64,000 nt of DNA from a virus: IMG/VR virus record IMGVR_UViG_3300044991_001301; one strand, 5' to 3'. The notes below the pieces were generated by a model that saw nothing but the letters and a program-made list of their open reading frames with translations, was not told the DNA's origin and did no database searches. Of the stretch, positions 24,302-25,356 are shown piece by piece (position 1 is the stretch's first letter; the number at the start of each line of letters is the position of its first letter). The translations under genes and the position numbers were made by a program.

Positions 24302-24532
24302 TCAAAAGAATGGCAATTGAGATTTTTTCGTCATATCAAGATTGTATTCTATAATGCCATTTATGTGGTCGCGCTCGGCTGAGGACATATTTAATATGTC
24401 CTCATATGATACCCCTCCCCGCATATACCAAGCCATGCTTAACGCATTCTTTTTTATTGCGATGCACTCGTTGTCATAATCATCTATCAGCTTCCCAACG
24501 CCCTCAGGGCTTAGGCGAAGAAGCCTTAACCG
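24302..24532 (-). CDS. gp51-like / tail chaperone 'GT'-type extension, reached by a predicted -1 frameshift (76 aa, no start of its own at the 5' end)
   Basis: The -1 frame after the slippery site reads RLRLLRLSPEGVGKLIDDYDNECIAIKKNALSMAWYMRGGVSYEDILNMSSAERDHINGIIEYNLDMTKKSQLPFF*. Not in the ORF track. Confidence 0.7.
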   Translation of the reverse strand, partial: RLRLLRLSPEGVGKLIDDYDNECIAIKKNALSMAWYMRGGVSYEDILNMSSAERDHINGIIEYNLDMTKKSQLPFF

Positions 24533-25356
24533 AAAAAATCAGAAGTATTCAGAATGAATTGTTGATCGTATTCGTGTTCACAGTGAATACATTTAATTTT
24601 CAATGGCTTTATTTCAGTCTGTGCTTTTAAGCTGCCATTTTGATCTCTAATAGCAGCGTACATGTTTTTATCACAATTCTTCAAGAAATCTAAAATAAAG
24701 TTTTTATCATTTACTATGGTGTCTGGCGTTTGTATACGGTCTATGGCCGACGCTAGAATATTCATTGTAAGATCGGTAATTTTTCTCAATGCTTCTTGAC
24801 CTTGAAGTGCCCGTTTTGCTTCATCACTCTCATTGTCAAGACCTGCAAACACACGTTGCAATTCAAACTGACCCAAACTGGCAGCATTCATTTCTTTATA
24901 TGTTAGTGGTCTGAAGTTAATAAGTAGTTCATTAATTTGAAAAGGTGTCTCGTAATTTCCGGATTTTAATTGAGATAAAATTCCAATTAAATTAACCCCG
25001 TAATTGGCTACTTCTGAACATTCCGGACACTGTGACTCGATTTCCATATCGCTACCACCGGCTGCCGACTTAATAGCAATAAGAATAGCATCTAAGTCAA
25101 TGCTATTGATGGACCATGGCTCTTTAATATCAGGAATGCAACTTTTTATTAGTTCAGTCATTGCCGTTCCATTAAACAGTGCATCCGGAGTCTTTGATGT
25201 TATTTCATCAATTGCCGTCATTGGATAAACTGGAACTTCACCCGATTCAGGAATAGTAACTACTCCGGGGGCATAATGTTTACCACCGCTAGGTAGTTTG
25301 AGATACACTGCTGGTCTGCGAAAATACTGTTTTAGCGGATTGTTATTCAATGACAT
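24526..25356 (-). CDS. Baseplate hub / tail assembly chaperone (T4 gp26-like)
   Basis: YLKLPSG...PMTAIDE...DLDAILIAIKSAA.G...CPEC...CIHC...DFFG; divergent from the tape measure gene. Confidence 0.75.
   Translation of the reverse strand: MSLNNNPLKQYFRRPAVYLKLPSGGKHYAPGVVTIPESGEVPVYPMTAIDEITSKTPDALFNGTAMTELIKSCIPDIKEPWSINSIDLDAILIAIKSAAGGSDMEIESQCPECSEVANYGVNLIGILSQLKSGNYETPFQINELLINFRPLTYKEMNAASLGQFELQRVFAGLDNESDEAKRALQGQEALRKITDLTMNILASAIDRIQTPDTIVNDKNFILDFLKNCDKNMYAAIRDQNGSLKAQTEIKPLKIKCIHCEHEYDQQFILNTSDFFG

What the first reader, a model, noticed from the sequence alone, without database searches (positions are those of the whole stretch)
24302..24540. Predicted -1 ribosomal frameshift fusing the gp26-like chaperone to a start-less gp51-like ORF (lambda G/GT logic in a T4-like phage)
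Seen: the gp26-like gene ends GAT TTT TTC GGT TAA on the minus strand, a canonical X XXY YYZ heptamer T TTT TTC at 24538-24532. The -1 frame stays open for 76 codons to TGA at 24302 and reads like a real protein (…SMAWYMRGGVSYEDILNMSSAERDHI…LPFF), but its first ATG comes only after 32 codons. A hairpin (GGTTAAGGC-TTCTTC-GCCTAAGCC) and GCCC-TGA-GGGC follow the site. Known: lambda G/GT and P2 E/E' tail chaperones next to the tape measure gene are made by such frameshifts. Inference: this phage makes a 276-aa and a ~351-aa chaperone, and the T4-type gp26/gp51 pair is the G/GT equivalent. The tape measure gene is the adjacent divergent gene.
Basis: partly seen in the sequence, partly recalled or inferred. 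Interest (0 to 1): 0.85.

Follow-up and report, generated by a model that had tools for sequence, protein, structure and literature searches.

The report
Frameshift makes two baseplate-hub chaperone forms
One tail-baseplate assembly gene of this uncultured giant T4-like phage very probably makes a short and a long protein, because some ribosomes slip back one base on a strictly conserved TTTTTTC run; phage T4 makes the same pair from two separate genes (26 and 51), and I found no paper that reports the slip.

Summary
The gp26-like gene (25356..24526, minus strand, Pfam PF12322) ends GAT TTT TTC GGT TAA. It carries an in-phase T TTT TTC heptamer (24538-24532). A -1 frame opens exactly there and runs 78 codons to TGA at 24304-24302.

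The frameshift reading is strongly supported by comparison:
- All 60 related IMG/VR loci that reach the junction, 12 named jumbo phages, 79 of 80 cyanophage-like loci, and P-SSM2, Syn9, S-PM2, HTVC008M, KVP40 and Aeh1 keep an in-phase slippery heptamer at this junction. Two loci have A AAT TTT instead.
- The -1 peptide is conserved from the heptamer onward, well upstream of any start codon.
- A stem-loop follows 6 nt downstream.
- The tail is homologous to the C-terminal tail of T4 gp51.
- Phages with two PF12322 genes (T4, RB49, RB43, 44RR, and a lake-phage lineage with tandem paralogs) carry the tail in frame on one paralog and have no working slip site.

The lambda G/GT-like chaperone function remains an inference; no fold similarity was found. 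No paper or GenBank record I could search reports the slip. This scan has already found the same feature on other DNA (72 notes, at least 61 genomes).

The parts
24526..25356 (-). gp26-like baseplate-hub assembly gene, zero frame, 276 aa (short form)
   Evidence: ORF and translation. Pfam PF12322 T4_baseplate E 2.1e-15, residues 44-275. phrog_150 baseplate hub. AlphaFold2 model pLDDT 88.8, pTM 0.82.
24532..24538 (-). Slippery heptamer T TTT TTC in X XXY YYZ phase
   Evidence: The heptamer and its flanking bases (GATTTTTTCG) are invariant in 26 aligned relatives, while neighbouring third codon positions vary. It is present in phase in all 60 IMG/VR loci that reach the junction, in 12 named jumbo phages and in 79 of 80 cyanophage-like loci.
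24539..24541 (-). TGA stop in the -1 frame immediately upstream of the heptamer; it bounds the shift window on the 5' side
24526..24528 (-). TAA stop of the zero frame, one codon after the heptamer; it bounds the shift window on the 3' side
   Evidence: The same one-codon distance is seen in the lake clade and the cyanophage clade.
24489..24525 (-). Stem-loop 6 nt downstream of the heptamer (outer stem GGCUUCU/GGGAAGCU, inner stem CGCC/GGCG), the likely frameshift stimulator
   Evidence: Minimum free energy is -15.5 kcal/mol, against a mean of -5.8 for 50-nt windows of the same gene. In the alignment 79% of cells pair, against about 45% in slid controls, and the covariation score exceeds all 500 shuffles. 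Lake clade, n=35: mean z -3.2. Cyanophages have a differently sequenced stem at the same spacing: n=68, z -2.85.
24302..24538 (-). -1 frame ORF (78 codons plus TGA) encoding the gp51-like C-terminal tail; the long form is 275 + 76 = 351 aa
   Evidence: tblastn matches start at residue 1 in the -1 phase in jumbo phages. Codon periodicity and synonymous excess appear in this frame from the heptamer on. AlphaFold2 gives pLDDT 84.6 with a long helix at residues 11-38, upstream of the first Met. hhalign against the gp51 family gives E 1.8e-5. Natural in-frame fusions of 319-351 aa exist.
25421..29860 (+). Neighbouring divergent 1479-aa gene: tape-measure-like segment plus SLT transglycosylase and VanY peptidase domains (context only, not part of the recoding signal)
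   Evidence: phrog_794 tail length tape measure, residues 496-866, E 2.3e-17. PF01464 and PF02557. The true start may be the in-frame ATG at 25454.

Best explanation
This is a programmed -1 ribosomal frameshift site at the 3' end of the single gp26/gp51-family gene (PF12322) of this phage. Most ribosomes read GAT TTT TTC GGT and stop, giving the 276-aa short form, the gp26 equivalent. A minority slip while the two tRNA-Phe sit on UUU UUC. They are probably paused by the stem-loop that starts 6 nt downstream. They re-pair on U UUU UU one base back and continue with CGG in the -1 frame. This adds a 76-residue helical tail and gives a 351-aa long form, the gp51 equivalent. Shown here by sequence and comparison: the signal, its phase, the coding status of the tail from the heptamer on, its homology to the gp51 tail, and the replacement of the slip by a second gene in other lineages. 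Inferred: that slippage is ribosomal rather than transcriptional, that the long form is the minor product, and that the two forms act together as assembly chaperones for the hub and tape measure, much as lambda G and GT do. My odds are about 0.9 that a frameshift makes the long form, about 0.8 that the long form is the functional counterpart of T4 gp51, and about 0.45 that the pair works like G/GT.
For: (1) Anatomy: the heptamer is in phase and the shift window is only 10 nt, between the -1 stop and the zero-frame stop. (2) Conservation across deep divergence: all 60 IMG/VR loci that reach the junction (31-72% identity) keep an in-phase heptamer. Two distant ones have a different canonical heptamer, A AAT TTT, at the same place. 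The 12 named jumbo phages from several genera keep it too (RaK2, A4, EJP2, PHA46, CBB, GAP32, XbC2, XaC1, Paride, RsoM2USA, Atu_ph07, Phosso). So do P-SSM2, Syn9, S-PM2, HTVC008M and KVP40, Aeh1 and 79 of 80 cyanophage-like loci. Those loci have 44 distinct junction sequences, and the codon before FF always ends in T. (3) The first start codon in the -1 ORF varies from codon 4 to codon 49, while the peptide is conserved from the heptamer on. Third-position variability is 0.45 against 0.27 and 0.20 at positions 1 and 2 in codons 3-34. Synonymous to nonsynonymous codon differences are 4446:9864 in this frame, against 1443:12541 and 860:12852 in the other frames, which hold about 7.8 stops each. 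(4) A downstream stem-loop sits at canonical spacing, with covariation, in two clades whose stems have different sequences. (5) Homology of the tail: Pfam PF12322 covers T4 gp26 1-206 and gp51 1-201 of 249. The cyanophage tail against the gp51 family gives probability 95%, E 4e-8. The window-clade tail against the gp51 family gives 78%, E 1.8e-5, in the same register. (6) A natural experiment: genomes with one PF12322 gene have the heptamer and the -1 tail. Genomes with two (T4, RB49, RB43, 44RR) carry the tail in frame on one paralog and have no working slip site; T4 codes FF as TTC TTT. (7) A second, independent case: about 22 of the top 150 profile hits are 319-351-aa proteins with the tail fused in frame. 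In the two lineages whose contigs were examined, a tail-less PF12322 paralog lies in tandem just upstream. (8) The tail folds confidently, and its main helix lies upstream of the first Met.
Against: There are no experimental data (reporter, mass spectrometry or ribosome profiling) for any of these phages, and the efficiency is unknown. The window's 99-nt downstream region is not more stable than dinucleotide shuffles (z +1.03); the stem stands out only against windows of the same gene and through conservation. The stem is weak in the RaK2-like group (z -1.1). Some relatives (Atu_ph07, Phosso, P-SSM2, S-PM2, KVP40) have an ATG 4-6 codons after the heptamer, so coupled re-initiation could operate there as well. 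RM378 has a single PF12322 gene with neither heptamer nor tail. The tail proteins of this clade carry no precomputed Pfam family, whereas gp51 carries PF28602. For the G/GT analogy, the gp26-like model has no relative among solved structures.
Confidence: 0.88

Rival explanations
1. The downstream ORF is a separate small gene (the 'short gp51' of database records). It would be translated on its own, from Met35 or from a non-canonical start, or by termination-reinitiation coupled to the gp26 stop.
For: GenBank records annotate it this way, or not at all. Some relatives have an ATG overlapping or next to the zero-frame stop. Shine-Dalgarno use in this phage is weak in general, so a missing one proves little.
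Against: In the window, RaK2, Syn9, Aeh1 and most lake loci there is no ATG/GTG/TTG for 13-49 codons, yet the peptide is conserved and shows coding periodicity from the heptamer on. This rival does not explain why the heptamer, its phase and the T-ending preceding codon are invariant. It does not explain why the heptamer disappears when the tail is fused in frame to a paralog. The main helix of the tail would be lost from a Met35 start.
Confidence: 0.05
2. The frame change is made by RNA polymerase slippage on the T run, which adds one extra U to some transcripts, rather than by the ribosome.
For: The site is a homopolymer run. HTVC008M has T8 and RsoM2USA has T9, lengths at which transcriptional slippage is known in bacteria (established knowledge, not tested here).
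Against: Most sites have only T6. The run is always in X XXY YYZ phase with a conserved C at position 7, which polymerase slippage does not require. Two loci use A AAT TTT, a tandem-slippage motif with a shorter run. A stem-loop at 5-7 nt spacing is the hallmark of a ribosomal stimulator.
Confidence: 0.05
3. The feature is chance or artefact: a gene broken by a sequencing error or mutation in a homopolymer, or an accidental open frame.
For: Homopolymer runs are error-prone. One cyanophage-like contig (L144) has a 2-nt deletion at the site that fuses the frames.
Against: The same two-frame arrangement occurs in over 150 independent assemblies and in finished genomes from many laboratories. The zero-frame stop follows within 1-11 codons everywhere, and both frames are under purifying selection.
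Confidence: 0.01

Closest known systems
Phage T4 gp26 (208 aa) and gp51 (249 aa), baseplate hub assembly chaperones (Leiman et al. 2010, PMC3004832)
   Same: They belong to the same family. PF12322 covers the window protein, gp26 and residues 1-201 of gp51. gp51 carries a 48-aa C-terminal tail that aligns with the window's -1 tail. As in T4, the gene sits next to the tape-measure/hub genes. The paper describes gp51 as required for assembly but absent from the particle.
   Different: T4 encodes the two forms as two diverged, divergently transcribed genes. Its gp26 ends FFELL with FF coded TTC TTT, there is no heptamer, and the -1 frame there is gene 25. The window has one gene plus recoding.
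'Short gp51' ORFs of cyanophages and vibriophage KVP40 (Sullivan et al. 2010, PMC3037559; GenBank notes for KVP40.0327 and Syn9 gp13)
   Same: This is the same object. A 47-67-codon ORF lies directly after gp26 and resembles only the C-terminal ~40 residues of T4 gp51. I find the same in-phase T TTT TTC and -1 phase there.
   Different: In the paper and in the records these are treated as free-standing truncated genes, and no frameshift is annotated. The tail of the window's clade is longer (76 aa) and only distantly similar to theirs (E 0.023, same register).
Lambda gpG/gpGT and the conserved -1 frameshift of tail assembly chaperone genes in long-tailed phages (Xu, Hendrix and Duda 2004; also P2 E/E+E'); cited from my own knowledge and from the reference list seen
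   Same: The logic is the same. A short and a C-terminally extended form come from one gene through a -1 slip on a heptamer near the 3' end, in a tail-assembly gene next to the tape measure gene. In KVP40 and Syn9 the order is tube paralog, gp26, tail ORF, large protein, like lambda V-G-T-H.
   Different: No sequence or fold similarity to G/GT-type chaperones was detected. There was only a weak structural hit of the tail to a 'tape measure chaperone' of phage Moogle (E 0.65). The protein is twice the size of gpG and has a four-cysteine motif. Binding to tape measure or tube is untested.
E. coli dnaX tau/gamma (a -1 frameshift on A AAA AAG with a downstream stem-loop); from established knowledge
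   Same: It is a canonical bacterial -1 site built from a heptamer, a short spacer and a stem-loop, and it gives two protein forms from one gene. Other lineages obtain the two forms by other genetic means.
   Different: In dnaX the slip shortens the protein, whereas here it lengthens it. No upstream Shine-Dalgarno-like stimulator is evident here.

Membership tests
Canonical -1 programmed ribosomal frameshift site | X XXY YYZ heptamer in the zero-frame phase | tested here: met
   T TTT TTC at 24538-24532 in phase. It is conserved in phase in all relatives. Variants are A AAT TTT and T TTT TTT.
Canonical -1 programmed ribosomal frameshift site | Downstream RNA structure at 5-9 nt spacing | tested here: met
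   Stem-loop 24525..24489, 6 nt after the heptamer. 79% of cells pair against about 45% in slid controls, and covariation exceeds all 500 shuffles. It is markedly more stable than windows of the same gene in the lake and cyanophage clades. It is not exceptional against shuffles of the window sequence alone. A pseudoknot was not tested.
Canonical -1 programmed ribosomal frameshift site | -1 ORF that overlaps the zero-frame end, lacks its own start and is conserved as protein from the slip site | tested here: met
Canonical -1 programmed ribosomal frameshift site | Trans-frame protein product observed | not testable with these tools
   This needs a reporter assay, a western blot or mass spectrometry. 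Natural in-frame fusions of the same two parts exist.
T4 gp26/gp51 family (Pfam PF12322 T4_baseplate) | Match to the family profile above the curated cut-off | tested here: met
   57.4 bits against a cut-off of 24.5, residues 44-275.
T4 gp51 C-terminal tail (Pfam PF28602 on gp51 homologs, not in the local Pfam copy) | Homology of the -1 tail to the gp51 C-terminus, collinear with the PF12322 domain | tested here: inconclusive
   hhalign gives probability 78%, E 1.8e-5 against the gp51 family, in a register consistent with the cyanophage tail, which scores 95%, E 4e-8. The small ORF proteins of this clade carry no precomputed Pfam hit, and PF28602 itself could not be scanned.
Lambda G/GT-type tail assembly chaperones | Two forms sharing an N-terminus, made by a -1 frameshift, encoded beside the tape measure gene | tested here: met
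   Predicted 276-aa and 351-aa forms. The tape-measure-like gene is the divergent neighbour. The order tube paralog, gp26, tail, large protein is seen in KVP40 and Syn9.
Lambda G/GT-type tail assembly chaperones | Sequence or fold relationship to known tail assembly chaperones | tested here: inconclusive
   No Pfam, PHROG or PDB sequence hit to chaperone families. Foldseek best E is 0.17. The VIA wide search found only generic helical hairpins. One weak BFVD hit of the tail to a 'tape measure chaperone'.
Lambda G/GT-type tail assembly chaperones | Short form binds the tape measure; the extension binds the tube protein; both are absent from virions | not testable with these tools
Absence of T4 gp51 from particles is reported in the literature (PMC3004832).

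The most novel reading that the evidence does not exclude
The gp26/gp51 pair would be the T4 superfamily's counterpart of the G/GT tail assembly chaperones. The -1 frameshift would be the ancestral and still predominant way to make the long form. It is seen in jumbo RaK2/Atu_ph07-type phages, lake giant phages, Kyanoviridae, pelagimyophage, and KVP40- and Aeh1-type Straboviridae. It would have been replaced at least twice independently by gene duplication plus in-frame fusion, once in the T-even-like Straboviridae and once in a lake-phage lineage. The classical 'catalytic' low-dose requirement for T4 gp51 would then mirror the low yield of a frameshift product.
Probability: 0.45. Interest if true: 0.8.

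Novelty: new member of a known kind. Interest (0 to 1): 0.7.

Why it matters
Three points make this worth attention.
- It would explain a 20-year-old annotation puzzle. Cyanophages, KVP40 and relatives appear to have only a 'truncated' gp51, and Aeh1 appears to have none.
- It would correct the annotation of a core structural gene in hundreds of T4-like and jumbo phage genomes, none of which marks the slip.
- It would extend the near-universal tail-assembly frameshift of long-tailed phages to the T4 superfamily. That gives a concrete, testable hypothesis for the long-obscure roles of T4 gp26 and gp51: a short and a long form of one chaperone, needed in unequal amounts.

The repeated replacement of recoding by gene duplication is also a clean example of two genetic routes to the same protein pair.

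Tried and rejected
Neither the 9-bp stem starting at the heptamer nor GCCC-TGA-GGGC is conserved. RNAalifold on its own found only a 4-bp CUUC/GAAG helix.
- **DNA similarity.** A DNA-level search of the phage collection found nothing.
- **Family and structure searches.** Pfam and PHROGs gave no hit for the tail. Sequence searches of the PDB gave nothing meaningful for either part.
- **Fold searches of the gp26-like model.** These gave no relative (Foldseek best E 0.17). The VIA wide search gave only generic helical-hairpin matches to residues 150-204. No link to known tail chaperones could therefore be shown or excluded.
- **Rfam.** No family matches at 24250-24650.
- **Large neighbouring proteins.** A BLASTP and a Pfam scan could not show that the large protein after the tail ORF in KVP40 or Syn9 is a gp29-type tape measure.
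- **CBB virion proteome paper.** Its gene numbering could not be mapped to the junction gene.
- **Folding the long form.** The 351-aa long form cannot be written as an unaltered translation of the window, so I did not attempt a fold of it.
- **Literature.** Ten searches found no report of the slip. Subscription-only papers are not covered.

Full report
**Observation**

On the minus strand the 276-aa ORF 25356..24526 ends GAT TTT TTC GGT TAA. The heptamer T TTT TTC (24538-24532) is in X XXY YYZ phase. The -1 frame has a TGA at 24541-24539 and then runs open for 78 codons to TGA at 24304-24302. Its first ATG/GTG/TTG is at 24436, which is codon 35. Any frame change must therefore happen within 24538..24529. 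Tandem slippage would give a 351-aa product: residues 1-275 plus 76 new ones, with the junction ...SDFF-RLRLL....

**Identity of the genes**

- The zero-frame protein belongs to Pfam PF12322 (T4_baseplate; 57 bits) and to phrog_150.
- The divergent neighbour (25421..29860) has a tape-measure-like segment plus SLT and VanY domains.
- A T4-type portal, gp46/gp47-like nuclease subunits, a gp55-like late sigma factor and gp5/gp6/gp25-like baseplate genes surround it.
- The window therefore comes from an uncultured giant T4-related phage. Its closest relatives are IMG/VR contigs, one of them a complete 360,683-bp genome.

**Conservation of the signal**

A tblastn search with the 78-aa -1 peptide hits jumbo phages from residue 1. 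The hit always abuts the gp26-like gene and always lies in the -1 phase. I read the junctions directly:

- All 60 IMG/VR loci that reach the junction (31-72% identity) have an in-phase heptamer. Fifty-eight have T TTT TTC and two distant ones have A AAT TTT at the same spot.
- Twelve named jumbo phages of several genera have it (RaK2, A4, EJP2, PHA46, CBB, GAP32, XbC2, XaC1, Paride, Atu_ph07, Phosso). RsoM2USA has T TTT TTT.
- In a 26-sequence alignment GATTTTTTCG is invariant, while adjacent third codon positions vary.
- No GenBank record examined annotates a frameshift. The tail ORF is either a small 'hypothetical protein' with an arbitrary start or is missing.

**The tail is coding from the heptamer on**

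The first possible start codon in the -1 ORF ranges from codon 4 to codon 49 among relatives, but the peptide (consensus FFRLRLL..PE..KLID...) is conserved from the first residue.

| Measure, codons 3-34 (35 distinct sequences) | -1 frame | Other two frames |
|---|---|---|
| Variability at codon positions 1 / 2 / 3 | 0.27 / 0.20 / 0.45 | not coding-like |
| Synonymous : nonsynonymous codon differences | 4446 : 9864 | 1443 : 12541 and 860 : 12852 |
| Stops per frame | 0 | about 7.8 |

AlphaFold2 folds the tail confidently (pLDDT 84.6). Its longest helix spans residues 11-38, upstream of Met35.

**RNA structure**

A different stem-loop at 24525..24489 starts 6 nt after the heptamer.

- In the alignment 79% of its cells pair, against about 45% in slid controls. 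Five pairs show changes on both sides, and the covariation score is above all 500 shuffles.
- Compared with 50-nt windows from the same gene, the region is much more stable in the lake clade (n=35, mean z -3.2) and in cyanophages (n=68, z -2.85). The cyanophage stem has an unrelated sequence at the same spacing.
- The stem is weak in RaK2-like phages (z -1.1).
- Against shuffles of the window's own 99 nt it is unremarkable.
- The stem overlaps conserved codons (LL and KKL), so part of its conservation is protein-driven.

**Relation to gp51**

In T4, genes 26 and 51 are divergent neighbours.

- PF12322 covers all of gp26 and residues 1-201 of the 249-aa gp51. They are paralogs, and gp51 has an extra C-terminal tail.
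- T4 gp26 ends FFELL with FF coded TTC TTT, which is not slippery, and the -1 frame there is gene 25.
- Sullivan et al. 2010 reported that cyanophage and KVP40 'gp51' is only about 20% of the T4 length and lacks the first ~200 residues. They also reported that Aeh1 lacks gp51 (PMC3037559). GenBank notes say the same for KVP40.0327 and Syn9 gp13, both of which sit right after gp26.
- I find that P-SSM2, Syn9, S-PM2, HTVC008M, KVP40 and Aeh1 each have one PF12322 gene. That gene ends in an in-phase T TTT TTC (T TTT TTT in HTVC008M), followed by a 59-67-codon -1 ORF.
- Of 80 cyanophage-like IMG/VR loci, 79 do too. They have 44 distinct junction sequences, and the codon before FF always ends in T.
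- Profile comparisons tie the tails together. Cyanophage tail against the gp51 family gives probability 95%, E 4e-8. Window-clade tail against the gp51 family gives 78%, E 1.8e-5. Window clade against cyanophage tail gives E 0.023 in the same register.

**Natural experiments**

| PF12322 genes | Genomes | Slip site and tail |
|---|---|---|
| One | Atu_ph07, RaK2, Paride, the complete 360-kb relative, five marine T4-likes, Aeh1 | Heptamer plus -1 tail |
| Two | T4, RB49, RB43, 44RR | No working slip site; tail in frame on one paralog |
| One (exception) | RM378 | Neither heptamer nor tail |

There is also an independent case. A profile of the tail, searched against 1.84 billion representatives, finds 549 proteins. 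About 22 of the best 150 are 319-351 aa long, with the tail fused in frame at the C-terminus (junction ..SSF-RSRIL.., coded TTC AGA). In the two lineages whose contigs I examined, a second, tail-less PF12322 paralog (294 or 297 aa) lies in tandem immediately upstream. One keeps a vestigial heptamer with a 3-codon -1 frame, and the other codes FF as TTC TTT. Both a short and a long form are therefore evidently needed. Lineages supply them either by recoding or by two genes.

**Mechanism and rivals**

Ribosomal tandem slippage fits four observations: the strict phase, the conserved C at position 7, the alternative A AAT TTT heptamer, and the stem-loop spacing.

- Polymerase slippage is unlikely on T6, though it could contribute where the run is T8-T9.
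- Independent or coupled initiation cannot explain the start-less conserved N-terminal third of the tail. It also cannot explain the invariant heptamer.
- An artefact is excluded by the number of independent assemblies.

**Function**

Leiman et al. 2010 list gp26 and gp51 as hub assembly chaperones and describe gp51 as required for assembly but absent from particles. The G/GT analogy has some support. There are two nested forms. The gene lies beside the tape measure gene. In KVP40 and Syn9 the order is tube paralog, gp26, tail, large protein.

The analogy remains unproven. The gp26-like model (pLDDT 88.8) has no solved structural relative. The tail's only hint is a weak BFVD match to a 'tape measure chaperone' of phage Moogle. 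The complex predictor was not available.

**Novelty**

Ten literature searches and all database records examined show no report of this frameshift. The short gp51 ORFs and the gp26/gp51 paralogy are known.

This scan has noted the same feature before on other DNA: 72 notes in at least 61 genomes. Earlier follow-ups reached the same reading. I looked those up only after my own analysis was complete.

The mechanism is a textbook -1 site, so I class it as a new member of a known kind. It is of real interest to phage biologists because it affects a core gene of a very abundant virus group.

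Noticed in passing
L144 (IMGVR_UViG_3300049043_000112, 236-kb contig), junction near locus 1380-1400: This cyanophage-like contig has a 2-nt deletion (TC) inside the heptamer, compared with its close relative L133. The deletion fuses gp26 and the gp51-like tail into one 289-aa frame (...EGLTSFWLGMAH...). 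It is either a natural long-form-only variant or an assembly error in the homopolymer.
   Followed up: partly
L179 (Aeromonas phage Aeh1, NC_005260, gp26 at 119007-119723 minus): Sullivan et al. 2010 reported that Aeh1 lacks gp51. It has the in-phase T TTT TTC and an unannotated 60-codon -1 ORF with the gp51 tail motif (..TPFERAIY..). Its 'missing' gp51 is probably a frameshift product.
   Followed up: yes
L183 (Rhodothermus phage RM378, NC_004735, 25929-26459): This is a single PF12322 gene (E 1.5e-10) that ends ..ESFFWNKL. It has no canonical in-phase heptamer, and its -1 frame is only 12 codons long. It is the one exception to the rule that one gene goes with a slip site.
   Followed up: partly
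L190:411-1295 and L187:196-1089 (metagenome contigs): These lake-phage lineages have tandem PF12322 paralogs, a short one followed by a long one with the tail in frame. The short paralog of L190 still has AAT TTT TTC, but its -1 frame is only 3 codons long, which looks like a relic of the slip site.
   Followed up: yes
L182/L185 (phage RB43, NC_007023, 64622-65903): The two PF12322 genes of RB43 lie in tandem on the same strand, gp51-like first and then gp26-like. This differs from the divergent arrangement in T4, RB49 and 44RR.
   Followed up: no
window 25421-29860 (+): The tape-measure-like neighbour is 1479 aa long and combines a tape-measure segment with SLT transglycosylase and VanY-type peptidase domains. 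Its listed TTG start at 25421 may really be the in-frame ATG at 25454.
   Followed up: partly
L083 (HTVC008M) and L073 (RsoM2USA) junctions: In these two phages the slip site is a T8 or T9 run (AGT TTT TTT TAA; GTT TTT TTT TCC). That is long enough for transcriptional slippage to add to ribosomal slippage.
   Followed up: no
model m1c02f974a39d (tail, window 24305-24538 minus): Among BFVD structural matches of the tail, rank 8 is a 212-aa 'Tape measure chaperone' of Citrobacter phage Moogle (E 0.65, probability 0.82, TM 0.53). It is a weak lead towards a link with the extensions of tail assembly chaperones.
   Followed up: no
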